Source: Nemertoderma westbladi
Taxonomy: Eukaryota > Animalia > Xenacoelomorpha
Assembly (NCBI GenBank): GCA_032718475.1
Contig: JAUCBJ010008490.1
Location: 1 to 64,000 of the forward strand
Direction: 5' to 3'
Length of the DNA: 64,000 nucleotides
This document shows, in pieces, positions 4,946 through 51,016 of the stretch (position 1 is the stretch's first letter; the number at the start of each line of letters is the position of its first letter). Under the pieces are notes generated by a model that worked only from the letters and a program-made list of their open reading frames with translations, was not told the DNA's origin and did not search any database. A program made the position numbers and the translations under genes.

Positions 4946-5281
4946 GGGGCGAGCCACGAAGTGAGTGAGCCTTAGCGTAGTGGTACCATTAATCAACCTG
5001 TGGGGCGAGCCACGAAGTGAGTGAGCCTTAGCGTAGTGGTACCATTAATCAACCTGTGGGGCGAGCCACGAAGTGAGTGAGCCTTAGCGTAGTGGTACCA
5101 TTAATCAACCTGTGGGGCGAGCCACGAAGTGAGTGAGCCTTAGCGTAGTGGTACCATTAATCAACCTGTGGGGCGAGCCACGATGTGAGTGAGCCTTAGC
5201 GTAGTGGTACCATTAATCAACCTGTGGGGCGAGCCACGAAGTGAGTGAGCCTTAGCGTAGTGGTACCATTAATCAACCTGT
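4946..5281 (+). repeat. Tandem repeat, 6 x 56 bp
   Basis: Unit ggggcgagccacgaagtgagtgagccttagcgtagtggtaccattaatcaacctgt at 4946, 5002, 5058, 5114, 5170, 5226. Confidence 0.97.
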
Positions 5282-5603
5282 CGTTCTGTCGTGTTTAATT
5301 TTAAACGTTAATAACTCGGCCAATCTTCGATGAAATCTATCCAAACTTGGTACACATGTTGTTTGGCAAAAGTTTTAGAAATTTTCCAAGTAGAATTTCC
5401 GTGTGGCCTTCGAGAAGCTAAGATAATAGCAGTTAATTAGTTAATTAAGTTGATTACGGTATTTTTTTGCGGTGTTCAATTTTGAACGTTAATAACTCGA
5501 TCAATCCTCGATGAAATGTAACCAAACTTGGTACACAAATAGTCTGTCAAAAGTTTAGAAATTTTCCAAGTTGAATTTGCTTGGGGCCTTCGTGCAGCAC
5601 CAG
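4946..5603 (+). mobile_element. Non-autonomous element of the GGGGCGAGCC family (Helentron/HINE-like) with a six-fold tandem 5' end
   Basis: Starts GGGGCGAGCCACGAAGT like copies at 24006-25879 and 50832-51016; ends GGGGCCTTCGTGCAGCACCAG then TGT; internal ~180-bp unit shared with 32643-32830 and 50430-50590. Confidence 0.6.
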
Positions 5604-8514: not shown

Positions 8515-9128
8515 TTCTAACCAAAACAATAAACAGTCACTTTACCAAATCAGGGAAAGGAGCAGGTTACAGAGACGGGATTTTCTAACCAAAACAATAA
8601 ACGATCATTTAACTAATTGAGGGAAAGGAGCAGGTTACAGAGACGGGATTTTCTAACCAAAACAATAAACGATAACATTACCAATTGAGAGAAAGGAGCA
8701 GGTTACAGAGGCGGGATTTTCTAACCAAAACAATAAACGATAACATTACCAATTGAGGGAAAGGAGCAGGTTACAGAGGCGGGATTTTCTAACCAAAACA
8801 ATAAACGATAACATTACCAATTGAGGGAAAGGAGCAGGTTACAGAGGCGGGATTTCCTAACCAAAACAATAAACGATCACTTAAACTAATTGAGGGAAAG
8901 GAGCAGGTTACAGAGGCGGGATTTTCTAACCAAAACAATAAACAGTCACTTTACCAAATCAGGGAAAGGAGCAGGTTACATAGAGACGGGATTTTCTAAC
9001 CAAAACAATAAACGATCATTTAACTAATTGAGGGAAAGGAGCAGGTTACAGAGACGGGATTTTCTAACCAAAACAATAAACGATCATTTAACTAATTGAG
9101 GGAAAGGGGCAGGTTACAGAGGCGGGCC
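8515..9128. repeat. Minisatellite, ~9 copies of a 66-68 bp unit
   Basis: Unit ttctaaccaaaacaataaacga...aattgagggaaaggagcaggttacagaggcgggatt; a partial unit precedes the LINE at ~6695-6745. Confidence 0.95.
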
Positions 9129-9841
9129 TTCTGTGCTGTTGGAAGTAGTGGAGCCGCTATCCGTAACACTACTCAGACAGTAGTCATGATCCATTATTGA
9201 TTATAAAACTAATACAGTAAGGCCTAAATTATGTGAAAGGTATATCCACATTTTCCACAATCCTGCAATCCAGTTTCGCCTATCAATTATTTAAAATTTA
9301 TTAGCATAACCGGTAGGCCTACCATTACCGTATTTAAATGGTAGGCTACACAGTAGGCCTATAGCAGTACCGGTGCCGGTACCGGTACTAAAATACAGAA
9401 ATACCTGCTTTATACCTACATCTGTACATACAATACAGCAAAATAGTGCTATATATATCAGTATATATACTAACCGGTACTGATAGCCTGAGAGAACAGC
9501 AGTAGAGAAACCGGTAGCATGGAACCTAACATTAGACTTTTGGATGACATAAAAAATCAAAAAAAATTGACAAAAAAAGGATAAAAATGGACAATAAAAA
9601 TTATTCCGATATTATATTATACTTTATCAACACATTGACTGAGACGATATTATTTTAACCTACTCTCCTCCTGATCTCCGCAGCATATAGAATTCCCTGG
9701 CAAAACTCTTCTTCGCAACCTCCTCAATTTATTGGCACATACATACTCTATCTTTTATTATCGCTCTTCGATTGTCTCCCATGGGCGAACTACTGTACGC
9801 GCGTGACGGCGTTTATTGAGTGGGTTTTTTTGGTTGGTTGA

Positions 9842-12529: not shown

Positions 12530-15038
12530 TGCTATCACCAATGTGTCCGTACGTCCACTACCAAGGATTGATGAGGTACTAGATCACTTCGGAGGTAATT
12601 GCTTATTTTCAACCCTAGATTTGACCAATGGCTACTGGAATGTAGGTGTGAAGGAATCAGACAAAACAAAGACTAGCTTTGTTACAGAAAATGGACAATG
12701 GCAGTTTAAAAGGATGCCATATGGGTTGTCTGGCGCACCCGCAACGTTTCAAAGTTTAATGAGCAGAATATTGTATCGGTTAGAGGGGCATATTTGTCTT
12801 GTATACCTAGACGATGTAATAATATATTCAGCTAGCTTTGAACAACACATGAAGGATCTAGACGCAGTACTTACATTAATCGCCGATGCAGGACTGAAAC
12901 TGAAACTTAGAAAATGTAAATTTGCGTTGAAAGAAGTAGAATATTTAGGTCATAACGTGTCAGGTAAGGGAATACAGCCAACCAATAAGAATAAAGAGGC
13001 AGTATCACGTTTTCCTACACCAAACTCAATCACAACAGTTCGTCAGTTCTTAGGTCTAGCCTCATTTTATCGTAAGTTTATTAAAAACTTTGCAGATATA
13101 GCAAAGCCACTTACAGAATTGCTTCGTAAGGATAAGTCATTTAAATGGAACCATAATTGTGAAGAAGCCTTCAATAATCTAAAACAACGCCTTATCACAT
13201 CTCCTATATTGTCATATCCTGATTTGAGTTCCACCGCGGGTAAGTATAAACTATATACTGATGCATCTATAACAGGTTTGGGAGTAACTCTTGAACAATC
13301 ACAGGACGATAAAATGGTTGTGATTGGATACGCCAGTAGGACACTCTTACCTGCCGAATCCAGATATTCTGTCCACGAGTTGGAGGCTCTGGCTGTTGTC
13401 TGGGGAGTGAAGAAGTTCAGACACTACTTATTAGGAAATCAGTTTGAAGTAGTTACAGACCACCAAGCTCTAAAGTGGTTGTTGACGACTAAAGAACCAA
13501 CGGGACGTATAGCAAGATGGAGCATTATTCTTCAAGAATACAATTATACTGTACTACATCGACCAGGGCGGTTTCATTCCCATGTTGACGCTTTGAGCCG
13601 TAACCCCATTAATCATGATAGCCCACAAGAAGATTCTGACATACCTGGACCTTTACTACATATACCATTGCAAACAAACACAAAAGATAATTCAGGTAAG
13701 GGAAGAACACACTAAGAAGAAGAAGTTGTAACCGTTGGAATTACTCAGGTTAGTCCCGCACAAGGATCAATTATCATTAAAGAGTTGAGTCCAGAGACTC
13801 ATGGAGAGCTGAACTTTATAACGATCCACGGCTAGAAGAATTAATACGTTTAAAGGAAGGTAAGGAAGGACCAGCTATAGGAGAAACACCTAGAGCACAA
13901 CAATTAAGATTAGTAAATAATATTACTATTGATAAAAAGACAGGGTTCATCTATTACTTAGGACCATCAAAGCAGGAGCGTTTGTTGCTTGTACCTAAAT
14001 CTTTGGTAAATAAAATACTGTATGAACTACATGATGGTACTTCTGGTGGCCATCTAGGTATATCAAAGACCTGCGTGAAAATTCGCCAGCGTTACTGGTG
14101 GCCAACTTTGAGGGCAGACGTACAAGCCTATTGTAAATCATGTATTCATTGCCAACGCGCAAAAAGACCAAACACTAATATAGTTACACCGCTACATCCT
14201 CTTCCAGTGACCCCAAATCCATTTGATCGTGTAGAATTTGATTTGATTGGTCCGTTTCATAAGTCTAAGAATGGAAATCGTTATATTGCACTTTTTGTAG
14301 ATAGTCTAACAAAGTGGCCAGAAGCAACAGCAATTCCAGACAAATCCGCAAAGAGCGTAGCGCGCGAGTTTGTAAATGAAGTCGTATGTCGCCATGGCGC
14401 CCCCAGAAAATTACTCACAGACCAAGATTCAAACTTTCGATCAGAACTTCTTAATGAGGTAAATACAATAGCGTATAGAACGAGTTGTCAAGACACGGTG
14501 AAAACAACTGTTATCAGCTAAGGATAATATTAACTTATCAAATTATACACAAATAATGTCAGAAACATTACTGTCGGCTCGAGATACAGCAAAATTATTA
14601 CAGGAACACAGTAGGGGGAAATCGTCAAACCACTATAACAAATATCATAATACAAAGACACCTACATTTAAACCCAATGATCTTGTTTTAGTTGAAGCTA
14701 AGACGTGTCCCAAAGGTAAGAGTAAGAAATTGCGTCCGAAATATACAGGTCCATTTACAGTTATAGAATGGGTTGGAGAAAATCTCAAGTTACAGGGAGC
14801 AAGAGGTAAACCTATTATTGTTCATCCAAATATGGTTAAACTGGCCGCAGTACGTGAAATTGATGATGTCAGATTGAAATACCCTGCGATTATCGCTGAT
14901 ACTGACACCGAAACCAGTGACCTTGAAAGTGGAGAAATACCTCCTTGGTTGCTTAACCGTCATAACTATAACTCTACTGAGATTGATTATATTGACTCCA
15001 ACTCACCTGCTATTGTGACAACCTACGACAAAATGTGA
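12490..15038 (+). pseudogene. pol: Gypsy pol remainder: RT, RNase H and integrase, with frameshifts/stops and an internal integrase deletion
   Basis: YLDD, YTDAS, ELEALAVVW, TDHQAL; integrase H...GGH...CIHC, FDLIGP, TDQDSNF; the YHPQ..G.VE segment carrying the catalytic E is missing near 14470; C-terminal PKYTGPF motif in 14556..15038. Confidence 0.92.
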
Positions 15039-15514
15039 TACAGTATCACATTTATTATGGTGGTATTAAACCAAAACTCAGAAAATAGCAGGTTAGGTTC
15101 AATTGAACCGAATATAAGATATTCAGTACTAACAGTACAATGTGAAAAATTGTTATCACAAATTACTTAACGTAGTGTTAATTTTGGTAGTTATACTAAC
15201 ATAAAATAGTAAAAAGTAGAAAGGCTGCATAGCACTCAACTTTTTTTTTTTCATTTATACTGTAGCTACTATAGAATATTTGATATGTTATTTCTTTCTT
15301 ACCATACTAATGGACACGAGTCATGCATGTGTGTTATTCTAAACTACAGAAGGCTGTAGTGATGTTGTTTTATATTACAGTTTATTCAACATTATTTTAC
15401 ACATCGCAATTTAGGTTTGATCCACCGATCCACGTTGTTACTGTATTTGCAAAGTTCAATTTCATCTTATTATAAAAAAAAAATCGAGGACGATTTTTGT
15501 CTGAAGTGTGGGGG

Positions 15515-16324
15515 TGTGACGTCAACTACAAGTCAGCCACCCCATACGGTTACATTAAATTGTAACTTTATAATCCAGTTAAGAATGTTTTCTACAGCAT
15601 TTACCCATCGGCACTATTTAAAGTTTTGGCATGTCAATAAAATATTTTCTACAGTAAATTAAGACCCCCCCGTGATATGAAAACGTTTCCTATAAAAACA
15701 TCCAGCTGTCAATTAAATTATATTATATTTCCGTTCATCCATTGAAAAATACTGATGTCTGGTTTTAAAGACTTGACAGAATTAACTTCAGATAAAAACA
15801 ATCCTACACTTTCGGAATAGCATCCGCCAATCACAACAGATGTTATATTTCCAAATATTATAAAATAGAACGTTGTTAAACAGAGGGGATTTTTTTTGTT
15901 ATGATGATTGTTTAGGTTTTGTGTTGTTGGTCTTACTGTACTTGGGTTTGGGTGGGGGTAGTGTTTGATTATAATACACAGCATGATCAATTCTCAAGTT
16001 TATATATTATTATACGTCCATATTATATTATACTTTATCAACACATTGACTGAGACGATATTATTTTAACCTACTCTCCTCCTGATCTCCGCAGCATATA
16101 GAATTCCCTGGCAAAACTCTTCTTCGCAACCTCCTCAATTTATTGGCACATACATACTCTATCTTTTATTATCGCTCTTCGATTGTCTCCCATGCCATGG
16201 GCGAACTACTGTACGCGCGTGACGGCGTTTATTGAGTGGGTTTTTTTGGTTGGTTGAATGGATGAAGACGAAACTCTCCCGTTCTTGGCAGACTCTAATC
16301 CGTCCTTGACCCACTCGCGTCACA
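15515..16324 (+). repeat. Gypsy 3' LTR (810 bp)
   Basis: TG...CA ends, preceded by a purine tract and followed by TSD ACTG. Confidence 0.96.
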
Positions 16325-16717: not shown

Positions 16718-17428
16718 GGATATATCTTTTTACAGAACACAGCAGAACACAGTAGAACACAGCAGAACACAATAGAATACAGGCGGAACATAGGCGAACA
16801 CAGCTGTAATTAAAATCTACACCAAAAAATAACACACTTGGGAAAGTACCGGATTTAATCATACAACTGTAAGATGTCAATTACATATTTAAATTAAATG
16901 GCGGTTTTCATATCCTCCAAAATAAATTACTTCTCATTATCCTGTAACCATGGAGAGTTGGTTAGTTCTACAGCAGTACAGTACCGGTAGCTGAGTAGGC
17001 CTACATCAGTACATTGGTAATATACTCTACACTGTGCCCGGTAATTGCCGGTAAATGCCTACATCTGTCTGTCTGTACAATGTACAGTCTGTCAGTATGT
17101 ACATGTCTCTACAGCACTAGGCCTACTGCAGTACTGGAACAGGCTGACAGGCAGACTGCTGGACTAGTAACAGGTACAGGCCTAACCGAACAGCTGATCG
17201 GGCAACTCTGATCAGGTAATTTATTTTGGAGGATATGGAAACCGCCATTTAATTTAAATATGTAATTGACATCTTACAGTTGTATGATTAAGTCCGGTAC
17301 TTTCCCAAGTGTGTTATTTTTTGGTGTAGATTTTAATTACAGCTATGTTCGCCTATGTTCCGCCTGTATTCTATTGTGTTCTGCTGTGTTCTACTGTGTT
17401 CTGCTGTGTTCTGTAAAAAGAACTATCC
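16718..17428. mobile_element. MULE-type MITE, 711 bp, ~210-bp TIRs
   Basis: TSD GTAGATGCA at 16709-16717 and 17429-17437; 16718-16930 is the near-perfect reverse complement of 17216-17428. Confidence 0.93.
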
Positions 17429-18892: not shown

Positions 18893-21800
18893 TCAGTTAT
18901 CTTTATTCTGACCCTGTCCACTCTTCCTTTCTCCTTCCATTTTCCTGGATGTCGAGTGCTTTAGCCAATCCTTCATTTTTTCCTCAATGTGGTGAAGTAC
19001 TGCACCGCCACCTGACTGCATAACTGCCTTTGTAATTGCTTTGCAAATCTAAACACATAAGAAAAAATAATAAGTAATAATTTTTTCTACTCTGGTTATT
19101 GCCCTGTAAAAAAACTTTGCGTGTAACCTAACACCTTTTAAGATTAATGTGCGAGGTTTTTCAAAATGTTCTATAATACATATTTTTTGTTCTAAAAATC
19201 TTTTCGTGACAATTTTAATTTATTTATATCGTACGCAAATTTTATTGTTGAAATATAAACCGTATGTTTAAAAAAAATAATAAATAAAATAATAAAAAAA
19301 AATAATAATAAAATGGTGTAATAAAATGTTCTATAACAAAAATTATTGTTCTAGAACATCATTTGTTTTAAAATGAATAGATAATATTTTCTAAAACATT
19401 AAAAAAAATAATTAAAATTTATTAAATTTTAATTAAATTTTAATTAAATTTATTACATTTTATTAAATTTAAAAAATTAAATATAAAATTCAAACAATTA
19501 TGGAATGGAGTGGAGTAGTATAAAATTTGAATTTGTATTAAGAAGAAAATACATGGAGAAAATAAATGGAGAAAATACATGACACAATAGACTCTTTTCA
19601 ACATACAGTATAATACATTCATTTTTAATAAATTTGATACTCGCGCAACACTCAGTACAATGTAGTTTTGCTATGAAGACATTTTGGACGGCAATTCTGC
19701 TAGTATATACACATAAATAGTATAGTGTGTGTCACAATTTCTGGAAAATTAATAGTCGTGATATATTAATTAATATAGTATAGTACAGTACTACAGTAAT
19801 AATAATACAATTTCATATTTTAAAATGAATAGATAATATTTTCTAAAACATTAAAAAAAATAATTAAAATTTATTAAATTTTAATTAAATTTTAATTAAA
19901 TTTATTACATTTTATTAAATTTAAAAAATTAAATATAAAATTCAAACAATTATGGAATGGAGTGGAGTAGTATAAAATTTGATGACAAATTGCTTGATAA
20001 TACTATATATTAATTACCTTCGTATCTCTAAATGCCTTCTTTCCATTTGATCCTATCCAATTAAAATGCGCCCCAAGATCATTGGTAATGCAATGGCGCA
20101 TTGCGGCACAGACTGTGGCCATGGAGTCGGGGCCACCAACGCACTGGATTTCGTGAACCATTCGGTTGAAGAAGGAGAGATCGCATAGCTTGGCTTCTAG
20201 AGCATGAAATTGATCTAATGATGATAAAGGTAGATACGTGCATGGGGAAGCATCCTGCAGTTCCTCATCGTTAATAGGAATAGCCGTCTTCAATTGGCAT
20301 AAAACTGCCTTCATCAGCCGGGTTAAGGCTCTAAGATTCTCTTTAATATACTCCTGATTTGATAATATTTGCGCCACTGCGCTTGGCTTTTCTACTTTTG
20401 ATGTGGTTCCGCCACACTTTGTTGTGAGTCCGGACACGGATACTTCATCGATCAATGCCTGGGATGACGTTGAAGCAGGATTAGGTGTCTGGATGTCGGC
20501 ATTGTCTACCGCGGTAGACATAATTAAATTCCATGCATCTTGTCCAATAGTAGCTAGCACTACGTTTCTATTCTGCTCGTCCTCATTAGGTGTCTCTGGG
20601 ATCGTGGCTCCCGCTGCACTTACATCACCAGACCCAGTACCTTCTCCAATCGTGGCTCCCGCTGCACTTACATCACCAGACCCAGTACCTTCTCCAATCG
20701 TGGCACCTGCTGCACTTACATCACCAGAACCAGTACCTTCTCCAATCGTGACACCTGCTGCACTTATATCACCAGACCCAGATGGCACTTGGTCTGGTGA
20801 TGGAAACAGAGGAATTTCTCCAAATAGAATTCTACAATCGAAATCTTTCCTTAATTTGCTATCTATTCCTCTGCTACACGTATTATACTGAGATGCATCG
20901 TCCTAAAATGCACAAAATTAGCATTTAATGAACTAACATGTGTGGAAAAACGAGACATGGGGGGGGGGGGGGATTGGATGCAAAACCCGCCTTGGCGAAT
21001 TAATTTCCCTCCTCAATGTTAAATTCTCAATTTAGGGAAATGAGCAGGTTACAGTGGCACGTTATTTTAACCAAAACAATAAACTAAACGCAATAGAACA
21101 GATTTAAGATAACTTTTTTGTTTTATTAGACCAATATCGGGAGAAAAAGTTGCACTTTTTTCGCCTAGGGATAAAAAGTGACCCATAGGATTGCATTGAT
21201 TTTACTTTTTTTCCCGGCGAAAAAAGTAAAACAAAATATTTTTGGTGGAATTTCGTAAATTTTATTAAATGTGTTCAATGAGCATTGACGTAGAAAAGGT
21301 TAGCAAGTAATTTGAGCAATATCCACACTCAAAAGTTATTGGAACTTTAGTGTCTGCGCGGCGAACTACAAAACGGAACTCTATATCCAATATTGGTTTA
21401 TGTTGTTAAGCGGCTCTCTAGTTACGTAATAAATATTCTAGAACACTATATTATTTAACATTGAGTAAAGCAGTATCAGGAGTTGAAGGGTACAGTAAAT
21501 TAAATTGCAGTAACTATGGAAGCAATATAGTAAAAAACTACAGTTCAATACATTTTGTAACACTATTGTACTGTAGTATATCGCTTTACGTTTTATTAAA
21601 CAATTAAGCAACAAAAAAGTACCAATTTAAGAATAAAATTACGTATTACATGGGAAAAAACACGTAGACCACTTTCTTTCAAAATGCTCTCGACCCTTTA
21701 TTAACCTCGTTGACGCTCGCTAAATAAAATGCCTCGAGAATAATGAAAAAAAAATTTTTACTTTTTTTCCCATGTAATAAATAATTATTATGTCCGCAAT

Positions 21801-22820: not shown

Positions 22821-25800
22821 TTAATGGTCGTGCAATAGTGGGAAAAAGGCAAGATCAGGAGTAGACCTACTGGTTTCTGGGAGTTCCAGGCAGCAAACTT
22901 TGGTTAACCGGTTTGGGTGTAGAATAACATGATGTTCAGATGTTTTATTTTCAGTTTTATAAATTCCAAGATTTACAGAACTGGTTGGAAATTCGAAGAG
23001 TGGGAACAAAGCCCCAAATCCGACCATTACACATTGGATTGCTAATGTGAGCTTATGTTGTAAAATAAAAATAACTTTATAGAATGATTTTGTTTCACTA
23101 CAGAACACAATATTGTCTGGAAACTTTGTTGTAATAATAAATTTGTATGATTCAACAGCAGAATAACCATTGAAATCCAGTTCGTATTCAACTGGCAACC
23201 TTACAGTAGTCTTACTGCACACAAAGTTTGTATCGACATCGAGAGCAACTGGGCGTCCACCAACAGTCATATTATAATACGAAAGTTCTTGAATTCTGCG
23301 ACAGAGCTGAGGTAATGGTTTAGCATAGGATCGTACAGTTCGCTTTATTTGATATAAAAAAGATTCGAACCGAAACGCTGATATATTGGACAATGTGCCA
23401 TGTAATTTTACATCACCTGCAAGATGAATCAGCGAGTGCATATTGTATGAAAGAAATACTGGTGAATAAATTTGTGGAACTAATGTAACAAATTTACGCA
23501 GAAGTTTGTCAGCATAATCTACAACATCAATATCAAAGCATGTGCTTAACAAGCGAATTGCAACATGCAGACAAAGGAAATGTTTATATTGTTCTTCTGG
23601 AAGTATCCCTTTAACCACAACGGGCCCAGTATACAGTAAGAATTGTCGAAATTCAGTCGCTTTCCATCTATCAATAAATACCAAGGAGCGAGGTTTTCTG
23701 GCAAATTCTCGTGGCATAACTATCGATTGTAAATGGTGTGACATTTGAACGATTTCATCAGAGTGACATTTAATGAATGACTTCCCTCTAACCCAACCCC
23801 TCAATAACTTTCGCATAACTCCTAAATATACCTGATGCATAACATCAATGGGAAACTGTTCAACCATTTTGATAGGCAGCTTTTCCAAAATTGAATATCC
23901 AACATGATGCTGCCCATCAGCTTTTACTCTAAAAGATTGGTCCGTTCGTTGGTCTGCATTAACTTTAACAAATTTAACACTACCCCCTACATATGTACCT
24001 TTACACGAAGTGGGGCCTTCGCGCAGCACGTGAAATGAGTTAATGCTAAGTATCAACTCGAAAGGATTATAAAAACATAGGAGAAGATTTTCCCGGAAAA
24101 CGTTAACCCTCTAGCGGGAGACTGGGTAACTGAAGAAGGAAGGATTAGTTTCCCTACAAAGCCACAGCCTATGGTCTATTACATATCTACCAAGTTTCCG
24201 ATTGACGGATCATAAATAACGAAATGTTGGAAGGTTTTCACTTTCATACATTTAGCCCTCTAGCGGCATATTAAAGAACTACGGATCGATCACCTTCCTC
24301 ACAAAGACGAGGCATGTGGTCTAGTACATACCGGTACTGTATATTCCAAAATTCAGCTTAAATAGATTAAGATCAAGGAATTCGTGAAGGTTATCACTTT
24401 CCTACATTTCGCCCTCTAGCGGCAGACTCGAAAACTCCGGACCGATTACTGTCCACACAAAGACTTAGGATGTCTTCTAGTACATATATGACAAGTTTCA
24501 GCTTGATCAGATCATAAATAACTAAATGGGAGATTAATTTCACTTTCGGGACATTTTGCCCTCTAGCGGCAGACTGGAGAACTGCAGACAGATTAGCCTC
24601 CTTTGAAATTTACAGCTAATGGTCTAGTACATACTTCCCAAGTTTCAGCTTAAACGGATTAAAAGCAAAGAAATGGGTGGCCATTTAATGTTTAGACATG
24701 TGGCCCTCTACCGGCAGACTGGAAAACTTCGGACCGATTACAATCCACACAAAGACTCAGGATGTCATCTAGTACATATATGACAAGTTTCAGCGTAATC
24801 AGATCATAAACAACTAAATGGAAGAATAATTTCACATTCGGGACATTTCGCCCTCTAGCGGCAGACTGGAGAGCTGCAGACAGATTAGCCTCCTTTGAAA
24901 TTTACAGCTAATGGTCTAGTACATACTTCCCAAGTTTCAGCTTAAACGGATTAAAAGCAAAGAAATGGGTGGCCATTTAATGTTTAGACATGTGGCCCTC
25001 TACCGGCAGACTGGAAAACTTCGGACCGATTAAAATCCACACAAAGACTCAGGATGTCATCTAGTACATATATGACAAGTTTCAGCGTAATCAGATCATA
25101 AACAACTAAATGGAAGAATAATTTCACATTCGGGACATTTCGCCCTCTAGCGGCAGACTGGAGAACTGCAGACAGATTAGCCTCCTTTGAAATTTACAGC
25201 TAATGGTCTAGTACATACTTCCCAAGTTTCAGCTTAAACGGATTAAAAGCAAAGAAATGGGTGGCCATTTAATGTTTAGACATGTGGCCCTCTAGCGGGA
25301 GACCATTGCACTGATGGTGTCTGAAAGTCTCTCAAAAATCTCAACTTTTGCTCATATTGATACCTACAAATTTTCAACTTGGCAGCTTTAAATCCGACAA
25401 AGTTATTAGCATGTCAAAATCGTAACGACGACAACGATTTCACTTTCAGACCTTTGGCCCTCTAGCGGCAGACTGGAGAACTGCAGATGGATTCGCCTCC
25501 TTTGAAAGTCACAGCTAATGGTCTAATACATATCTGCCAAGTTTCAGCTTAAACGGATTAAAAGCAAAGAAATGGGAGGGCATTTAATGTTTAGACATGT
25601 GGCCCTCTAGCGGGAGACCATTGCACTGATGGTGTCTGAAAGTCTCTCAAAAATCTCAACTTTTGCTCATATTGATACCTACAAATTTTCAACTTGGCAG
25701 CTTTAAATCCGACAAAGTTATTAGCATGTCAAAATCGTAACGACGACGACAACGACGACGACGACAACGACGACGACGACAACGACGACGACGACGACGA

Positions 25801-26971
25801 CGACAACTATTTGCATAAATTGACCCACCCCCTAACAGTGTCAATTCGCTAAGGCTCCGCCAACTTCGTGGCTCGCCCCACAACAACATTTGTCACAACC
25901 ATAGTACCCAGAATGTGACTTTATTCGCAGAATATAGGTTTTGGCCGGATAATCGCAAACAAAATTCTGAAGTTTAAGTGAGATTGAAAATTTCCCAACT
26001 ACAATTTGCTGAGTTAGTAACAGCTGCAGCTCATTTACAAGGTCTTCGAGAAACATATTCACATCATTAGGCTTGCATGGACCACAGTACAAACCAAACA
26101 CTGCTGGGTAAGACTGAACACCATTAGGTGTTGCTTTGTAGTGGAAGTCACCTAAAATAGGCCAAAATTCTGTACTTGAACTGGTGAAGAGAGGCAACCC
26201 ATCTATATTGATACAAAGCCAAATAACAACTTTATTTTGATTATCAGATTGTGCAGATCCACCTAACCTACGAAATACATGTTCTTGATTACAAAAGTTG
26301 ACAAGATGGGCCTCAACCCCAAAATACGTGTACCAACCAGTGCCTATATTTTTAAGTGACGGTTTATTGCGCGGCGTTTTTAGTAATGTCCTAGCATCAG
26401 TTGGTCCTAGCTTAGTTCTCAGCGATAAGCGTTCATCATCAGACTCTGCTTCCATAGAAAGTTGTAAATTGTGAGAATGGTCCGGTGTGGGACTACTACT
26501 GTTGTAACTGCTCACACTAGAATCTGAACACTGCAAGGACTCATCAGAACTGCTTTCAATGACACTGCAAGAGTCTGGCACAAACAAATTACCTGGAATA
26601 TTTGCATCACCTTGAAAGGCATCTCTCTGAACATTGGGCAAATTTTGACATTGAGCTATATCAGTAGAACTTGTAATAATTGTATTTGTTGACACTGGAA
26701 TACTGATGGTATTACAAGGAGAGTATACAGAAATAGTTGGGATGATGGGAGAAGTAACAGCACTGGCAGTAGCGGTTGTAAAGGATTGTAGAGTCGTAGT
26801 GGTTGTTTCACTACCAAGAACAGTAATATTGTTCTCATTACTTGTTTCTAAAAATAATTCAGAATCATCCAAATTCGACAAATTAGCAATGATTGATCGC
26901 GATGATCGCCATGCTCTATTTCTCACCGTACTGTTACATACATATTTGGTATGCTTCGAAGAAGAGGACAT
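22821..26971 (-). pseudogene. EnSpm/CACTA-type transposase split by an insertion (26971-25883 plus 24005-22821 = 757 aa)
   Basis: Motifs DARTLLKTP, INIDGLPL...FWPILG, VCDYPAK, HSGYYGCDKC, PIDVMHQVYLGV, WKATEFRQFLLY, YNMHSLIHL, SAFRFES; removing 24006-25882 restores one frame (GCDKCCCKGTY). Confidence 0.92.
24006..25879 (-). mobile_element. Non-autonomous GGGGCGAGCC-family element (Helentron/HINE-like) with an internal ~146/292-bp tandem array and a (CGA/CAA)n microsatellite
   Basis: Boundaries fixed by the interrupted transposase frame; ACA on both flanks; dimer units at 24558, 24850, 25142; microsatellite 25741-25806. Confidence 0.85.
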
Positions 26972-29900
26972 TGTTTTACAAATATACTAATATAGGCCCA
27001 TGTAATGTAAGAATACCAGACTTTCTGCCGTTATATTTCACTTTGCAGTTACCCCCATGTGAAGAATACCAGACTTTCTGCCGTTATATTTCACTTTGCA
27101 GTTACCCTCATATGAAGAATATACCAGATTTTCACCAAAAAAACAGGTTACAGAAGGGCAGTATCTAACCAAAACAATAAACGAATTAGTATATTATGTA
27201 CTGGAATTAAGACAGAAATAAACATTAAGCTATAAAACACTTAATAAAGATAAATAATAAAAAAAAAATCTTCATATATAAAATACCAATAAAAAGTCGA
27301 CCGAAAAGTGAAATCCTGGTATTCTTCACATGGGTGCAAATATAATACGTAGGTATACACTATTATGTTAAGTTTCGAAATTAAGTAACATGTTTGAGGA
27401 AAGTTATTGTTCAAAATATTAATTATGTATTTAGGCCTATATGACGCTGAATTAAGTATCACTTTATAGGATAAAGATCGCTTTGTTTATATACGCCGTG
27501 TCGTGCGAAGCAAGGAAAACATCGAATAGAAATAAATGAATTAATGAAAGTAGGCCCTACAGGTTGAATACCGGTACAATAAAGTCTTGGTTTACGTACA
27601 GAATGTACTAAAAGCCAAAGTGTGATGTTGCTACACTGTACTGTACTTTATTTAAATCGAATAGTTGTTATCTTATTCTTCTCGTCGTACTTTAAGTTTT
27701 AATATTTTTAACCTAGAAAAGAACGTGAAATGAAATTTCCCATCTAAATCCCGGAAATCAAAAAGTAAAAAAAATGTTTTAAAAGAGTTTATTTTAGCAC
27801 CGCACAAGGTAAGTATGTGGGTTAAATTTAACGAAAAAATAATTATAAACTGAATACTGAATATACTGTCATACTGCAGATAATAGGCGTAAAATATTTT
27901 AGAAATATAAATTGCTTGCAGAATAAGATACAAGATTTACAACAAGATTCACATTCTGAATGCTATCCTTGATAAAATTGAACTAAGAAAGTATGGAAAG
28001 TGCCAGACTAACTTGCCAGACTAATCTAAACAGTAATAACTAAAATGCAGCATGCCAATCCCAGTAGTAGAGGGTGCGCTCAGACCCTTTTCTGAAAGTG
28101 AAAGTTCGTCAAAAGAGAAAGAGAAAGCATGTCCCTAAACCGCTCTTTAGACATTCTATATCATCCATTTTCGATTTTCCGCAAACATGTCAAAATTTCA
28201 AAGCTTAATGAACTGAATAACCAGCTACTCGCATCTACTGTATCAGCACAGTTTTGGTACATTGGTACTGGTACACACATTACCGGTAGGGCCTACATAC
28301 AGTTGGCCTACAGTATAACCTGACTGCCTTAGTAGGCAGTTTGCTGTTACTATGTATGTATATTATATAGGCCTACAATAGTTTACTACCACACTCTATA
28401 AGGCTGTAAGTAAAATACATTGGGCAAGAACTATTCCGCCTGTCTTATATGGCGTGAGAAACTTGTTCACATAATTCTGACAATTTTTGAACCTTAAATG
28501 CATTGCAAATGAACCGTTTCTATGGATATATATTATTTGAACGGTATTTAAACTGTTTGAGATTAGTTCATTAATAGTGTACTTTTTAATAATTAAGTGT
28601 ATCCATTTATGGTCAGCTTTTGAACAAATTATGAATGGTTCATGTATAGATACGATTTTTAAACGTTAGTTGTTCTAAACGGCATATAAACCGTCATCAT
28701 ACATACACCATACTTCAACGTTAGGTTTTTTCCTAAATCGACATACCTGACACGTTCAATGATGATAACGAATTATGTACGTTGCAAATCAGTACATTGT
28801 TCTGGACGTTCATACTACTGTCCTTATTTTCAACGTTATTTATCGTTCATGAACGATTTGTGCTACTAGGGAAAGTATTCCCATCTCGATGATGGGAATT
28901 AATCAGTCTGTCAGTAATCCGATGGGATTCACAGATTCAAATCCCATCTCGAAGTAACAGCAAAACAATAAACACGAAAGTCAATAGCTTTACAGTTATA
29001 TTTGATTGCATTGAAAGTTAATAGAAAGAAGAAGTTAAATTGCATATCCATTAAAATATCATGAAATTGATACGGCAGTTTAGTAGATTAAAACCGCCAC
29101 AGCAAGATTTATAAAATGAAAAATAAGTAAAATCAGCACACAATATTATAAATTTAGACATTGAAGACAATTTAATAAACAAATACTATAAAAAAATATC
29201 TACTAACAATCAATACATGATATATATAATATATATAATATATATACATCATCGACTACCATCGCCACTCTGGTTCAATCAGTCAGTCCAGTATCATTGT
29301 TAGCGTTTTGTTGAATTACCCACTCATCCTCAGACCCTCATGGACACCGACGACGAGCTCTAACCCTAACCGTTAGTCGATTCCTCCTTGACTGGACAGG
29401 TTTGGGCCGTTCGGCCCATACAAAGTCATTAGCCTCCATGCCTGAACCCGCAGGATCGTAAGATCTACAGTATGTATCGGTATATCGTTCAGTCGTTTTT
29501 TCCTTTGTCAGTACTGTAGTATTGATAGGGTCCGTCTCGTGGGTATTCAGGGGACCCCCATTCGACGTATTCGCATCTCCTCCTGGTTGTTTCGGGTACC
29601 ACCGCCCGCCATATGCGCATCTCTTCGTGGTTATTCCGGGTACCACCCCCGTTCGCCGCATTCGCATCTCATCGAGGAAGTTCGGGTCCGGGTACCCCGT
29701 GTAGGCCTATTCATTCATCATTGTTGTTTTTAAAGACCTACCTACACCTACCTACATTCACCCTACACGTGCACCTACATGTAGGCTACACATACCTACA
29801 TGTAGCCTCTATGTAGGCTATACCTCTACGCAAAAGTTATACCAGAATTAGGTTAGAGGGTCCGTTGGCGCCGTACCGCCCTACTACTGTCAGTGTCAGA

Positions 29901-30849
29901 CTGTAGAACCGGACTGGTAGCAACTGCCAACTACAGAACTACCGGTACGGTACCGGCAACCGGTACTGAACTACGGCAGAAAATGAATTTCTTCGTTTGC
30001 GGTTTCTACTCTTGTTAACGGTTAAATATATTAATTAAAGACTATGTATTGGTAATTGGTACGACCGACGGCACCGGCAACTGGTATAATCAGATGTAGA
30101 TGTACATACCAATCTGCCAATACAACAATAGCAATAGGCCTACCCCTACCAACCATCCATCGACTCGGCAACTGCAACAATGGAAGTTATGCGGACTAAC
30201 CAGCTGACCGGCATTCTAAGATCAGGTACCCACTACCAGAGTCTACCCAGCTGCCCAGAAAAGTGTTGGAATTGAAATCAAACAACTCACCACCAAGGCC
30301 GCCTCTGTGTGTTGTGTTGACCTCGACTTTCGGTATCGCTGCCGCTACGGGCAAACTGGACTAACCGAAACCAAGGATGAAATAATCCGGTTTTTTAATC
30401 TCACTCTGCCATCACCCAGTGCCTGGCGGTGTTGAAATTGACACGCATTGTACAAGCAGTAGGCCTATTGCTCCGAGTTTCCGGCTGGTCGGGTGCAACT
30501 ACTGCATCTACAGATCTACATTGCCACACTATAACTCGGGCTCATGAGGACGAGTACTGCGTAGACTATATTCCTATAAACCAAAACCATACCTGGCTTC
30601 GCCTATTGAACGCATTATAAAGATCGTCAGTCTTCGTTTAGGAAAGATATTTAAATACAAAACAGGACGAGCACAACAAGACTTATAATGAAGACGAGTA
30701 CTGCGTTGACTATTATTATTATATAAACCACCTGGCTTCACATATTGAACGCATCCCTTGTTATTATTATTATAAATATCGTCAGCCTGCGTTTAAGAAA
30801 TATATTTAAATACAAAACAGGACGAACTCAATGAGGCTTATAATGAAGA

Positions 30850-32337
30850 TTTACACAATACAAGATATTACAAAAATTAGGCGAGTTTGGATTCCACAAC
30901 ACTGCTATCTCTATGCTGCGCACTTTTTTAGTAAACAGATATCAAAGAGTGAAACTCAACGGAACCACTTCTGAGTGGAAACTAATCAATCACGGAATTC
31001 CACAGGGAACACTCCTTGGCCCGATTATATTTTTAATGTATGTAAATTCCATAGCTAGCAAAAGTAAACTCCAACTAATCCAATATGCAGACGACACCTT
31101 AGTATACTGTCATGATAAAAATCCAAACAGAGCTGCAATATCATTGAGTAAACACATAAATGAACTAAAGGACATTTTTAGCTATTTGCACCTCAAACTA
31201 AATAACGATAAGACTGAATTCATGTTAATATCCCCAAATTCTAGAACAGACGAGATAAATAGCATACAACTGGATCTCAGTGAGGATACAAATAAACAGA
31301 CTAACATTCCACAATCTACACACATCAATTACCTTGGTCTAACCATTGACAACAAACTTGAATGGCGCGAACAAATTAAGATCACCTCAAATAAAATGAT
31401 CCAGGCCGTCTCTGGACTTCGGCAGATAAAGGGTCAGCTACCAGTAGGCACAAAACTAAATATTTATAAGGCTACAGTATTACCATACCACAATTACTGC
31501 TGTGAAGTACTAGTATCATTGCATAATGTCCACGGCTTTAAACTATCTTATATAGCTTAGAGAAAATACAAAACTATGGACTTCGCATTGTCCATAGCAA
31601 AAAGATTTCTGATATTTCTGGCACCGAATTACGTCGTCTATCAAAACTACCAACACTAAGAGCCCTTAGGGAATATTTTGCTTTACGATTTTTTTATCAA
31701 TATATATTCAAAATTACCAAACCATTCCAAAACTTAGAACTACCATTTATTAGCAACAGTCAGAAACAACTATTAAACCCGAGAACGAATAAAGTAAAAA
31801 TTCCAATAACGAAAAACACAATATCATACAACAGCGCTATGTTAAGTTTTGCACGCCTATGGAACTGCACAAATAAAACACTAACACTCCTAAGGCAATA
31901 CAAGGAATTCATGCGCGCGTTAAAAAAACACTTTCATACAAAATACGACAGAAATGCAATTACATAACTTCAACTATTCACATTTAGGTTACAATTATTC
32001 AACCGCTTTTTAACGAACAGTATTATTAACTGCCACTAGCCCTACATTGCAACCTGCTATACTTATTGGTGATTATTATTTATTGTGCTGTTATATTAGT
32101 GTCAATTACGATTGTGTGTGTATGAGTATGTATAAATATATTTGAGTGAGTGTTTAATACTAGTAGTATGTATTGTAGCATAGATTTAGATTTAGAACAA
32201 ATAACGTGCGGCTGCTGACGCTTATTCATCACCAATCATCAGCCATGTCTGGGCCATCCAGACGGGCTGCCTCCATATGTTTTTTAAACATCGGAGTTTT
32301 GATGAATAAAAGATTTTAACTAACTAACTAACTAACT
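30850..32337 (+). mobile_element. 5'-truncated CR1/L2-like LINE (RT pseudogene 30850 to ~31966) with (AACT)n tail
   Basis: GIPQGTLLGP, QYADD, KTEFM, YLGLTIDNKLEW; LEKIQNYGLRIV follows a frameshift near 31555; aataaa then (aact)5; flanks rejoin as the tandem-repeat unit. Confidence 0.88.
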
Positions 32338-32399
32338 AAGACGAGTACTACGTTTATTATATTCCTATAAACCACATGGCTTCGCATATTGAATGTGCG

Positions 32400-33070
32400 A
32401 TTGGAAATAAGTTTGTGCTACCCTTCCGTGGGTGGTAGATGTCGCGGTTATGTATTGGTTGGTGGGAAGGGGGGGGGGGGGGGGGGCAGATTAAAAGGGG
32501 TGAACACGTACTGTCCCCCTTTCTTTGATTGATTGGCGGTGTGGTTAAATTTCTCAAATACTGATTTTGTGATACAGTCGCTCAATTTTAATTTGTATCT
32601 CATAACTGGGCCTCGTGCTGCGCGAAGGCCCCACGAACGTGTCGTTCTGTCGCTTTTTTTGCAGTGTTCAATTTTAAACGTTAATAACTCGGCCAATCTT
32701 CGATGAAATCTATCCAAACTTGGTACACATGTTGTTTGGCAAAAGTTTAGAAATTTTCCAAGTTGAATTTTCGTGTGGCCTTCGAGAAGCTAAGATAATA
32801 GCAGTTAATTAGTTAATTAAATTGATTACGGTAAAAACAGCACTTTCAACCTGCCTGTTAAAGGAAATTAATTGTTTTACAGTATAAGACTTCAATAATT
32901 ATAATTAAAAATTATACAGATGTAATCCACATACGCCATTCTATTATAGTTTTTAATTAGTTCAAGTGATTTGCTTTAATAATTGTGTCTTTAATTGATC
33001 TTAAGTAATTAAAACGGCATAAAAAATTGATTCTCTTTAAATACTGCTCATTTATTGGCCAACATGCTGG
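32400..33070. mobile_element. Fragments of GGGGCGAGCC-family elements: a 3' end at 32639 (GTGCTGCGCGAAGGCCCCACGAACG|TGT) joined to the body of a 4946-type copy
   Basis: 32643-32830 matches 5282-5460; 32660-33070 matches 50427-50830. Confidence 0.65.
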
Positions 33071-34467
33071 TACATAGCTGGAAGGATGTGTGTGTAAGGC
33101 AGCAGCCAGTTGCTGGGAATGATTATTGGTCAAGTCTCTGCTGGTGTGGAGCTAGCTGGCTTGGAGTTGTGGCTGTAGACTAACCAGAGAGGAATAGTAA
33201 TAGGCAACCAGTATTGCTATTCCAGCCCAGACAGCATTCTTTAAATCCAACATCCCAACATCCTTCCTTTATTCCAATTCCTATTGACTCTACTATAAAT
33301 GTTGTATTGCTATCTCAGGTAAATGACAGATATAATAACATAAATACAATCCATGGCATGGCTGTTGTGTAGGCTTCTGAAATAGTTTATTCCACAATGT
33401 ATTTGTCTGGTTATTTTTTAATTGAATTTTTGGAAAGTAGTGAAATTAATGTTCTTAAAAATAATATTATTATTTTATATGTAACCAAGGAGATTAGCTA
33501 CATTTTTTCGCTGCAGCTTTAAGAGTGTACATTGATTTAATATTATTTCAATACCCATATTACTACATCGGCATAAGATGCGTTGGCGTTGTATCACACA
33601 TCTCCATATATCACACATATCCACATAGATGTATCAACAGTTACTCGCACAGTTTCGAAGCTTCGCATAGTTATAACTGTATAAAGATCGTCAGTCTGCG
33701 TTTAGGAAAAATATTTTATGACAAAACAGGACAAGCGACGAGCGCAACGAGGCATATAATGAAGACGAGTACTGCGTAGACTAAATTATTATATAAACCA
33801 CCTGGCTTCACACATTGATCGCATCCCTAGTTATTATTATTATAAAGATCGTCCTAGCCTGCGTTTAAGAAATATATTTAAATACAAAACAGGACGAACG
33901 CAACGAGGCATATAATGAAGACGAGTACTGCGTAGACTATATTCCTATAAACCATACCTGGCTGCGCCTATTGAACGCATCGATAGTTATAAAGATCGTC
34001 ATTCTGCGTTTAGGAAATATATTTAAATACAAAACAGGACGAGCACAACGAGGCTTATAAAGAAGACGAGTACTGCGTAGACTATATTCCTATAAACCAT
34101 ACCTGGCTGCGCCTATTGAACGCATCGATAGTTATAAAGATCGTCATTCTGCGTTTAGGAAATATATTTAAATACAAAACAGGACGAGCACAACGAGGCT
34201 TATAAAGAAAACGAGTACTGCGTAGACTAAATTATTATATAAACCACCTGGCTTCACACATTGATCGCATCCCTAGTTATTATTATTATAAAGATCGTCC
34301 TAGCCTGCGTTTAAGAAATATATTAAATTAGATATAAAGCGGTAGGCTATTGCCAGTGGTTCCATTTAAATAATAATAAATATAAATTACCATAAGCAAA
34401 GTATAGCATATAGGTAAGTATTAGGGGTCTACACTGGCTGAATATTGCAATGAAAACGCTGAATTTG

Positions 34468-35839: not shown

Positions 35840-36377
35840 TGTGACGGGATCCAGGAGGGATCCCGATTTATCCGATGTGGTATTTAGTCCACGCGTCCCC
35901 GCCGTGTATAAGAGTGAAATAAAGATAACTGAGTTCTGAAGTTCGGTGTATAATAATAGGTTATAGGATATAGATATATTGTGAATTATACGGTAGGCGG
36001 GATACGGTAACTAAAGTCCCGTGATCCCCTAACTAAACTAATTGACTGTACCCTACGCTAGCACTGCTGCACTGAGATAACTGAATCACTGATTAATAGG
36101 TTATTGGTTATATTGCACGGTGGCCTTACTGCTACTCAATCGATGCCATTCCCCCCTCTGATTGGTTAGTACCCTTGTTGGCGCCCCGTGGAGTATTCCC
36201 GTTCACTCCACCTGTTCTCCTTGGGTTAGGGGTTTGGCCCCTGACCCTCTATTGTGTGCTTCCTTCCCACTCTCATTGGGATGGCACGAGTTGGTTAATT
36301 GCCCAATCTCGTGGCTCCCAATATTGCTTATCGGCTAATAACTTTATGGGGTGTTGGCGGGATTGAATAAGCTAACA
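35840..36377 (-). repeat. BEL/Pao 3' LTR
   Basis: Direct repeat of 46523-47060, adjacent to the purine tract. Confidence 0.97.
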
Positions 36378-37089
36378 CTCCCCCCCCATGCTATCTTCCC
36401 GGTAAGAAGATAGCATCAACCAAAAAAGTGCGCTACAATCCCGCTGGATCCCGATCTCGTATCGGGTGTGGGGTGGAATTCTTTTCTCTTGGAGCCGGCT
36501 TTCCAGGCCGCCCCCTATGGGTATGATAACGCTACCCTGTGTGCCTGGCGTCTCATGTCGGGCCGATCGCGCTCACCTCTTCACGCGATTTTTGTTTCCC
36601 CAACACTTTCGCCCTACCTCCCCTCTACTCTCACCCTAACTCTCTCATACCCCCGGACCTCCTCGTCCCTCACTCAGCCTCTTATTCTCCCCCCCCCCAC
36701 ACTAGAATTGCGTTCGCACTCTCTCCGCACTTCACTCTATCACTTCGATCCTCAACCTCACTTCGACTGTTTTATCTTTCCTGACGAACCTCCCCCCCCC
36801 CTCTCGTGCCGTCGCACTCGAGAAGTGTGAAATTGTCAGTTGTCTCGTCCATAGTGCCATAGTCAATTGTCCCCCAGTCCCAGTAGCTAATTGAGAAAGG
36901 TTGTATGACTATAGTACTTACTCCAAACGTATGTATTTTACTGCTAATCACTACGTACGTACATACGAATTGCACTTATATGGTTATTTGCATTAATTAA
37001 ATTTATACTTAATAGTTCGTACGTTACATGCGGCGCCTTCCAGGCGCACCACTTCCCAGTCTCAGTCTCATTCCCTCGTCTCCGGGAAC

Positions 37090-39624: not shown

Positions 39625-40133
39625 TCCGAACACTACACTCGCTCACCTGTAGGGTGGTGCCTTACCAAGGCGCAATACAGATGAGTGATGTATTAAGATG
39701 TTTCGTACAGTTCGATAATGGCCTACTTTTCTACTTAACTGCGCCTTTCAAGCTTAATTTAATCTAATTAATTTCGGAGCTAGTAAATCAGCCTAATTTA
39801 CAATTTCCGTCCGTTACTTTTATTATGTTCTAGAACGACTTTCCTTGTGTTACCACTATTTTTCGATTTTTAGCCCTATTCTATTTATTTATTTATTTTG
39901 CTTTGATTCTACTGTCCTACTACTTACTACTGCCTATGGATTTATTCTATTCTCTGATCCATATTCTGGCCTACTCTGTGGGCCTATGCAGTACAGCAGT
40001 ATGCGTCGTGTGGCCACACGATTTATCCAGCTGCACTCATATGCCCCCCTCTCGCTACTAACTCTACTTACTGCTAACTAATATCTATATCCTATTTACC
40101 CCTTTTACCTCTTACTCTCTCTCTCTAACTAAT

Positions 40134-41180: not shown

Positions 41181-41287
41181 TATTTTTATTTTATTTTATT
41201 TTTATTTGTGTGGGAAGGGCGTCTCGCCCTCAATCCCACCCCCCTCAGTCCAAAACTTGGACGACTAAACTCCACTCTAACTCCGCT

Positions 41288-49716: not shown

Positions 49717-50325
49717 CGTTCGTGGGGACTTCGCGCAGCACGTAGTCGGCAAGCCTTGGCATACGGTTCATATAGAGCAAATGGGGCATGTCTAGTTTGG
49801 ACCCCATATCTCATGCTATAAATGTATTCATTCGATATACAATCATATGTTAATCCGCTAGGTGGTGTCAAATTGTTATTCTGCAATTTCGTACTTACCA
49901 GTGCAGCACTGTACAGCAGTACCGTACCGGTAGGCCTATGTCATTACTTCTGAGTCTCTAGCGGATCCCCAATTAAATGTCTTAACTTTTCAATTTCGTA
50001 AAAAATAGACTTCATGATTTTCTACAGGCCACCAAAATTTCAGCTCAGGAAAATGAGGCCTTCCCGAGAAATTTAACATTTTCTAAAAACCACATAATCT
50101 GTCTTAGCTGACGTCAGACTGCATGATTTTTCACCAAACTTTACAAACTTTCTAAACTTTCTCTCTACTACTTACCTACTAAGTTTGGTTCAATTCCGAA
50201 CCAGCGATGCCGAGATATTCGCGTTCAAACATTTACCAGACAGACAGACAGACAGACAGACGGACATGCCCCATTTGCCCTATATGAACCGTATGCCAAG
50301 GCTCGCCGACTACGTGTCTCGCCCC
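49717..50325 (-). mobile_element. DINE-1/HINE-like non-autonomous element (609 bp) of the GGGGCGAG family inserted in the satellite
   Basis: ACA on both flanks; ~55-bp subterminal inverted repeat (49739-49792 vs 50263-50316); (CAGA)n/GTCT microsatellite at 50237-50265. Confidence 0.85.
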
Positions 50326-50831: not shown

Positions 50832-51016
50832 CGTTCGTGGGGCCTTCGCGCAGCACATTAAATACAGCTCATTTATTGGTCAACGTGCAAGTGGGTGGTG
50901 GGTAGATGGGATGTGTGGAGCAGCTAGTTGGAGTGCAGTGCAGAGTCAGCAGTAAGTAAACTAAACAATTGTCTAAACTGTAAGGCGTGAGGCTAGCTGA
51001 CTTTGTGGCTCGTCCC
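50832..51016 (-). mobile_element. Minimal 185-bp member of the same family
   Basis: ACA|cgttcgtggggccttcgcgcagcac ... ctttgtggctcgtccc|ACA. Confidence 0.75.

What the first reader, a model, noticed from the sequence alone, without database searches (positions are those of the whole stretch)
24003..25882. Family of non-autonomous elements with conserved asymmetric ends and a recurrent TGT/ACA flank
Seen: three complete insertions with unrelated interiors (24006-25879, 49717-50325, 50832-51016) and one isolated end (32639) share 5' GGG(G/A)CGAG(C/A)CAC and 3' GTGCTGCGCGAAG(G/T)CCCCAC-N2/3-CG. All are bounded by TGT, and two empty sites reconstructable here (transposase frame, satellite phase) hold a single TGT. 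Known: subterminal inverted repeats, GTCY microsatellites and internal tandem arrays typify DINE-1/HINE Helentrons, but those insert at TT without duplication; short terminal direct repeats are instead typical of Replitrons and Cryptons. Inference: a TGT-specific rolling-circle or recombinase-mobilised family whose autonomous partner is not in this window.
Basis: partly seen in the sequence, partly recalled or inferred. Interest (0 to 1): 0.7.

Follow-up and report, generated by a model that had tools for sequence, protein, structure and literature searches.

The report
TGT-targeting Helitron-like miniature transposon family
These are short, gene-less jumping elements in an animal genome that sit at the three-letter sequence TGT and are built like known rolling-circle (Helitron2-type) transposons, so they likely move by a rolling-circle enzyme with a different target, although that enzyme was not found.

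Summary
The family is real. Three elements (24006-25879, 49717-50325, 50832-51016, minus strand) and one right end (32615-32639) share two conserved asymmetric ends and abut TGT. Two empty sites hold one TGT: homologous transposases fix the spacing and public contigs skip the element. The array and the lone right end abut the same internal TGT of a fourth family member, which points to self-insertion. Interiors are not unrelated: three share a microsatellite-then-core layout. Joining right end, one TGT and left end gives a hairpin (1-6 of 200 shuffles as stable). Best reading (0.55): a non-autonomous HLE2/HINE-like rolling-circle family with a TGT nick site instead of TT. Rivals: Crypton-like tyrosine recombinase (0.25), DDE with 3-bp duplication (0.1). 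Against: short inverted repeats (5-7 bp), no conserved end hairpin, no mobilising enzyme in 35 of 35 long ORFs, no genome to search. Repbase and Dfam could not be checked. Verdict: new variant of a known kind, moderate interest.

The parts
24006..25879 (-). E1, complete 1874-bp element: left end, (GTC)n microsatellite (25740-25804), core, internal 147/292-bp tandem repeats, right end; interrupts an EnSpm/CACTA-like transposase gene
24003..24005 (-). TGT outside the right end of E1
25880..25882 (-). TGT outside the left end of E1
49717..50325 (-). E2, complete 609-bp element in a 153-bp satellite: left end, subterminal inverted repeat (52 of 58 identical), (GTCT)n microsatellite (50237-50266), core, right end; TGT at 50326-50328 and 49714-49716
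50832..51016 (-). E3, 185-bp element; TGT at 51017-51019 and 50829-50831; interior resembles the repeat it adjoins, so possibly the inner part of a composite rather than a simple insertion
32615..32639 (+). E4, lone right end followed by TGT (32640-32642) and the body of family member F; no left end found upstream by profile search
4946..5281 (+). E0, six head-to-tail 56-bp copies of the left end, each ending in TGT; outer flank TAT (4943-4945); followed by the body of F
5282..5461 (+). Body of family member F (degenerate microsatellite plus core); further copies at 32643-33067 and 50428-50816
5581..5600 (-). Right-end-like motif (2 mismatches) inside F, opposite strand, without TGT; weaker copies near 5401-5421, 32773-32793, 50533-50553
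22821..26986 (-). Host EnSpm/CACTA-like transposase frame (Transposase_21 E 0.0022, DUF4218 E 3e-05, both under the curated cut-off) split by E1

Best explanation
These are gene-less mobile elements with two fixed asymmetric ends that sit at TGT in one orientation, and they likely move by rolling-circle (HUH) transposition using a Helitron2/Helentron-type enzyme encoded elsewhere in the genome. Shown: an empty TGT becomes TGT-element-TGT; the left end is followed by a microsatellite and a shared core; left ends are stacked at an internal TGT of a family member. Inferred: the enzyme would nick the same strand at TGT at the left end, at the right end and in the target, so one TGT belongs to the element and there is no true duplication; the displaced strand would close into a circle whose junction forms the hairpin GCCCCAC-loop-GTGGGGC; insertion into the TGT about 55 bases inside a relative would give stacked left ends (E0) and right ends followed by a relative's body (E4, E3). 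Where in TGT the cut falls cannot be read from these copies.
For: One TGT in two empty sites. Same strand polarity of TGT in all of E1-E4. Layout left end-microsatellite-core shared by E1, E2 and F: local alignment E2 vs F 0 of 500 shuffles as good, E2 vs E1 repeat unit 0 of 500, E1 vs E2 9 of 500; GTCY microsatellite, core and central tandem repeats are listed features of DINE-1 (PMC2374699). Six 56-bp left ends in tandem match the 31-85-nt multiple 5' termini of FoHeli Helitron2 elements, explained there by self-insertion (PMC5148889). E0 array and E4 use the same internal TGT of F, the first of six TGTs in that 245-nt stretch. In-silico end junctions fold as a hairpin in 3 of 3 elements, z -2.3 to -3.3. 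The right-end tip differs by one base between E1 and the other three, which a single-strand loop would tolerate (inference). Contigs from other loci break at 50328 and 50828-50829, the outer edge of the TGT, in 3 of 4 runs.
Against: Target is not TT. The inverted repeat is 7, 6 and 5 bp in E1, E2, E3 and lies 4-5 nt from the right end, against 8-15 bp and 20-30 bp in Helitron2 (PMC3627910). No conserved end hairpin: 15 of 16 end folds were no better than shuffles and a 3' hairpin was significant in 1 of 4 right ends. E1 core vs F core was not significant (99 of 500) and E3 has no core. No RepHel or HUH domain in 35 of 35 ORFs of 120 aa or more. The junction hairpin was noticed after the fact and is equally an inverted-repeat site for a recombinase. 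Fixed orientation rests on four insertions (chance 1 in 8). The array could also be a plain tandem duplication. One outer flank is TAT.
Confidence: 0.55

Rival explanations
1. Non-autonomous Crypton-like elements: a tyrosine recombinase excises a double-stranded circle and recombines its TGT core with a genomic TGT.
For: Core at both ends and one core in the empty site is the Crypton model, seen for CryptonF-1_cRei at CAYCG (PMC9977147); DIRS elements use a 3-bp core (PMC3266345). The joined ends give inverted arms around a short spacer. No stable single-end hairpins.
Against: Arms are 5-7 bp with a 5- or 6-nt spacer that varies between copies, against 11-13 bp arms and 6-8 bp spacer (PMC3212892); TGT straddles the arm-spacer border. 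Crypton repeats are 4-6 bp and none were found in animal Cryptons. The DINE-like interior and stacked left ends have their published parallels in Helitron2. No recombinase in 35 of 35 ORFs.
Confidence: 0.25
2. Non-autonomous DDE transposons with a strict TGT target and a true 3-bp target duplication.
For: TGT-element-TGT from a single TGT is formally a 3-bp duplication. E2 has a long subterminal inverted repeat (52 of 58). The left end starts with GG, the terminus recalled for Zator (from memory, no call).
Against: The two termini are not inverted repeats of each other (GGGGC versus CG). All four insertions have the non-palindromic target on the same strand. The only cut-and-paste transposase in the window is the one E1 disrupts.
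Confidence: 0.1
3. Partners of a rolling-circle enzyme outside the Helitron superfamily (Replitron-like or undescribed), whose origin is rebuilt at the end-to-end junction.
For: Short direct repeat at both termini and orientation-specific insertion are Replitron traits (PMC10288648); junction hairpin with the core at the loop edge.
Against: Replitrons were described from plants, algae and protists, with a 6-bp repeat in the type element; the interior is HINE-like; no Rep in the window.
Confidence: 0.1

Closest known systems
HINE / DINE-1, non-autonomous Helentrons (HLE2); PMC4067079, PMC2374699, PMC11417382 (passages read)
   Same: Non-coding; conserved asymmetric ends; GTCY-type microsatellite and core near one end; central tandem repeats; high copy; one copy of the flank motif may belong to the element.
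   Different: Target TGT, not TT or T-rich; inverted repeat 5-7 bp (or an imperfect 11-mer) instead of 12-15 bp; no conserved 3' stem-loop; partner Helentron not shown.
FoHeli Helitron2 elements of Fusarium oxysporum; PMC5148889 (sections 6 and 10 and passages read)
   Same: Asymmetric inverted repeats; stacked 5' termini of 31-85 nt explained by self-insertion; non-TT targets; FoHeli3-5 end in CTCCTGT and lack a 3' hairpin.
   Different: Fungal, autonomous, inverted repeats 12-16 bp placed 20-50 bp from the 3' end; no TGT target established.
Crypton DNA transposons (CryptonF-1_cRei; CryptonA/I); PMC3212892 (sections 5, 8 and passages), PMC9977147, PMC13465315 (passages)
   Same: Short core at both ends, one core in the empty site, no terminal inverted repeats.
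   Different: Cores are 4-6 bp; none found in animal Cryptons; arms and spacer here are shorter and variable; no recombinase found.
Replitrons; PMC10288648 (passages read)
   Same: Short direct terminal repeats, orientation-specific insertion.
   Different: Described from plants, algae and protists; type element has a 6-bp repeat, RG target, fuzzy ends and variable duplications.

Membership tests
HLE2 (Helitron2/Helentron, HINE/DINE-1) | Autonomous partner encoding RepHel with the same ends | not testable with these tools
   No genome held; none in 35 of 35 window ORFs of 120 aa or more.
HLE2 (Helitron2/Helentron, HINE/DINE-1) | Insertion between T and T (or T-rich target) | tested here: not met
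   Empty sites read TGT with varied neighbours. FoHeli shows the rule has exceptions.
HLE2 (Helitron2/Helentron, HINE/DINE-1) | Asymmetric or subterminal inverted repeats of 8-15 bp, one 20-60 bp from the 3' end | tested here: inconclusive
   GTGGGGC/GCCCCAC is 7, 6, 5 bp and 4-5 nt from the right end; an imperfect 11-mer (9 of 11 in E1 and E0, 7 of 11 in E2, absent in E3) lies 21-22 nt from the left end and 7-8 nt from the right.
HLE2 (Helitron2/Helentron, HINE/DINE-1) | Conserved terminal stem-loop | tested here: inconclusive
   15 of 16 end folds no better than shuffles; right-end hairpin significant in E4 only, present but not significant in E2, absent in E1 and E3.
HLE2 (Helitron2/Helentron, HINE/DINE-1) | GTCY microsatellite, conserved core, variable central tandem repeats, no ORF | tested here: met
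   E2 (GTCT)n, E1 (GTC)n and 147/292-bp repeats; shared core. Not in E3. Sequence homology to DINE-1 itself was not tested.
HLE2 (Helitron2/Helentron, HINE/DINE-1) | No target-site duplication | tested here: inconclusive
   Three bases appear twice; they may be an element-borne copy or a duplication.
Crypton | Tyrosine recombinase in an autonomous copy | not testable with these tools
   No genome; none in window ORFs.
Crypton | 4-6-bp direct repeat at both termini, single copy in the empty site | tested here: inconclusive
   Pattern met, but the repeat is 3 bp.
Crypton | Recombination site of 11-13-bp inverted arms around a 6-8-bp spacer | tested here: not met
   Arms 5-7 bp, spacer 5 or 6 nt.
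Replitron | Y1 Rep transposase without helicase | not testable with these tools
   None in window ORFs.
Replitron | Short direct terminal repeats | tested here: inconclusive
   Only the 3-bp TGT; Replitron-1 has 6 bp.
DDE transposons with 3-bp duplication | Terminal inverted repeats that reach both ends | tested here: not met
   Outside-in ends differ from the first base.
DIRS-like tyrosine-recombinase retroelements | Internal complementary region matching both termini | tested here: not met
   Profile search found no internal copy of either end in E1-E3; the right-like motif inside F has no left-end complement beside it.

The most novel reading that the evidence does not exclude
The elements are the satellites of an undescribed animal transposase (a non-Helitron HUH enzyme or a new recombinase) that recognises a hairpin origin formed only when the two ends are joined, cuts at TGT, and homes to the TGT inside its own relatives.
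Probability: 0.15. Interest if true: 0.8.

Novelty: new variant of a known kind. Interest (0 to 1): 0.42.

Why it matters
If the partner is an HLE2 RepHel, the family widens the target range of Helitron-like elements from AT/TT to a strict trinucleotide, and annotation rules that rely on T|T or A|T borders would miss or misplace it. A high-copy family with 28 nearly invariant right-end bases gives a direct handle for finding the enzyme and for testing how an HUH transposase chooses its target. If the partner is a recombinase or an unknown enzyme, it would define termini for a poorly described group of animal transposons.

Tried and rejected
Whole-genome search: no genome held. End motifs in viral contigs: 0 hits in two scans. 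Right motif in metagenome contigs: 8 of 8 loci are GC-rich (61-70%) chance matches without the CAC-N-CGTGT tip or an exact left end. Motif strings in papers: 1 paper listed, a Drosophila neuroscience paper, taken as unrelated from its listing. Seven other paper searches gave no family described with a TGT target in the passages read; Repbase, Dfam and subscription papers were not searchable, so absence from print is not shown. Coral CMITEs rejected (TTAA, piggyBac; PMC2872659 passages). ToxB-HLE starts with TGTC but inserts at T/T (preprint passages). DIRS-like structure rejected (no internal complementary region). Earlier-findings look-ups by sequence and place gave nothing. Single-end hairpins not supported. 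A genome-wide flank logo was not obtained; only the break points bear on it, and that table showed 15 of 52 joints and 24 of 988 loose ends. One piece there (X3 record 22) stops at 50325 and may be a contig end or a copy without TGT.

Full report
Setting. The window is repeat-dense eukaryotic DNA: a LINE reverse transcriptase, a Gypsy-type and a BEL/Pao-type LTR element, an EnSpm/CACTA-like transposase and several satellites. An animal host is inferred from the BEL/Pao element and from the named homologues of the transposase, mostly arthropods plus a fish. No genome is held.

Observation. The three elements and the lone right end are at the stated coordinates. Read on the element strand, the left end (L) is TGT|GGG(G/A)CGAG(C/A)CAC and the right end (R) is GTGCTGCGCGAAG(G/T)CCCCAC-TTCG or -GAACG|TGT. 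Neither motif occurred in 20 shuffles of bases 1-53000. TGT lies outside 3 of 3 L ends and 4 of 4 R ends, against a background of 0.016 per position.

Empty sites. E1 splits a transposase frame at the CxxC motif. Because three bases keep the frame, the frame alone cannot count TGTs, so I used homologues: 109 of 112 motif matches in 120 proteins have three residues between CxxC and the next glycine, which the window gives only with one TGT codon. For E2, contigs of 3 of 4 runs join 49713 to 50326, skipping 612 letters with three ambiguous ones, and 19 of 22 satellite units in the window have a single ACA at that phase. E3 has no clean empty site: the paralogue at 33060-33080 matches the R-side flank to the ACA and then diverges, E3's interior resembles that same repeat (0 of 500 shuffles), and its L-side flank has high summed depth, so it is itself repeated.

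Other loci. Summed contig depth across E2 in run X1 is about 56,000-186,000 outside the microsatellite bin, against 16-87 for the eight single contigs listed. The tool warns that this is no copy number; I take it only as a sign of a high-copy family. Several contigs in X1, X2 and X3 join 50328 to 50828 or 50829, one with 23 unrelated letters between, and X4 has a loose end at 50328; these copies match through the TGT and diverge outside it. Only 15 of 52 joints and 24 of 988 loose ends were shown, one piece stops at 50325 (ambiguous), and X1 and X3 are one sample. A genome-wide flank logo is therefore still missing.

At 4946-5281 there are six head-to-tail 56-bp copies of L, each ending in TGT, the outer flank being TAT. 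The array is followed by CGTTCTGTCG and a core sequence (family member F). The lone R end at 32639 is followed by TGT and the same F sequence. So one internal TGT of F, 54-56 bases from its start and the first of six TGTs in 245 nt, carries an extra L junction in one copy and an R junction in another. No L was found between 5281 and 32615 on the plus strand by profile search; whether E0 and E4 are two halves of one nest cannot be told. F also holds a decayed R-like motif on the opposite strand. The interiors are related: E1, E2 and F run L, microsatellite, core, in the same orientation; E2 vs F and E2 vs the E1 repeat unit beat 500 of 500 shuffles, E1 vs E2 491 of 500, but E1 vs F was not significant (99 of 500).

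End anatomy. L and R share GTGGGGC/GCCCCAC (7 bp in E1, 6 in E2, 5 in E3), flush with the TGT at L and 4-5 nt inside at R, and an imperfect 11-mer deeper in. Single ends do not fold better than shuffles in 15 of 16 tests; a hairpin upstream of the R tip is significant in 1 of 4. Joining R, one TGT and L in silico gives a hairpin in 3 of 3 elements (1, 6 and 5 of 200 shuffles as stable), with TGT at the loop-stem border. This test was chosen after seeing the repeat.

Enzyme. All 35 ORFs of 120 aa or more were scanned with Pfam; none has a RepHel, HUH or tyrosine recombinase domain. Shorter or spliced remnants were not scanned. End motifs were absent from viral contigs and gave only chance hits in 8 of 8 metagenome loci.

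Mechanism. Shown: fixed asymmetric ends, one TGT before and two after insertion, same polarity in four insertions, stacked left ends, shared interior. Inferred: a sequence-specific single-strand nick at TGT at both ends and in the target, a circular intermediate with the junction hairpin, and self-insertion. HUH transposons insert in one orientation at short targets (PMC10288648, passages). The interior matches the listed DINE-1 features (PMC2374699, passages; PMC4067079, passages). Stacked 5' termini of 31-85 nt from self-insertion, non-TT targets and loss of the 3' hairpin are all described for FoHeli Helitron2 elements (PMC5148889, sections 6 and 10 and passages). I give this 0.55. The Crypton model predicts the same flanks (PMC9977147, passages; PMC13465315, passages) and DIRS elements use 3-bp cores (PMC3266345, passages), but the arms and spacer here are shorter than the 11-13 and 6-8 bp quoted and vary by a base, and animal Cryptons showed no terminal repeats (PMC3212892, sections 5 and 8 and passages): 0.25. 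A DDE family with a true duplication lacks terminal inverted repeats: 0.1. A non-Helitron HUH partner: 0.1.

Membership and novelty. It works like a HINE, but the TT target was tested and not met, the inverted repeat and hairpin tests were inconclusive (criteria from PMC3627910 and PMC11417382, passages), and the partner could not be tested, so I do not file it as a Helentron. Eight paper searches showed no family with these ends or a TGT target in what I read; the two Repbase reviews list superfamilies without termini in the passages seen (PMC4455052, PMC5753468). No supplements were opened; those of the Crypton and Helentron papers list termini and may bear on this. The family may already sit in Repbase or Dfam, which were not available. 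Earlier scan notes on self-nesting Helentron-like elements in other genomes agree with the self-insertion reading but are unchecked leads. Verdict: a real, probably high-copy family; new variant of a known kind; interest 0.42.

Noticed in passing
window 35840-47060 (-): BEL/Pao LTR element inserted in the 153-bp satellite, LTRs 99.6% identical, 5-bp duplication AAGAC. It carries an extra 850-aa ORF (37090-39642) with no Pfam hit; residues 90-360 resemble a 3'-5' exonuclease cluster in the protein atlas (score 0.94, PF01612 on 34% of members) and the C-terminal part has three CCHC-like knuckles by eye.
   Followed up: partly
window 5855-16324 (+): Gypsy-type LTR element with frameshifted pol, apparent 4-bp duplication ACTG; its 5' LTR is split by an insertion (6368-9608) holding a LINE reverse transcriptase and a 68-bp tandem array.
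   Followed up: partly
window 20003-20902 (-): DUF4806 ORF with a 48-bp coding repeat, downstream of the EnSpm-like transposase and probably part of the same element.
   Followed up: no
window 53333-64000: 10.7-kb satellite of 32-bp units built on an 8-bp subrepeat, with strong A-over-T skew.
   Followed up: no
window 24003-24012 versus 49714-49724: The R tip of E1 (CAC-TTC-GTG) looks like the inverted loop of the other copies (CAC-GAAC-GTG) minus one base; in E2 the G-to-T change in R pairs with a matching change upstream, as G does in E4. Two cases only.
   Followed up: partly
window 30544-30849, 32338-32393, 33680-34330: A dispersed 145-bp tandem repeat family, one copy adjoining a LINE fragment at 30847-31967.
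   Followed up: no
window 16733-16804 and 17364-17413: Inverted arrays of a 10-bp unit about 560 bp apart, MITE-like.
   Followed up: no
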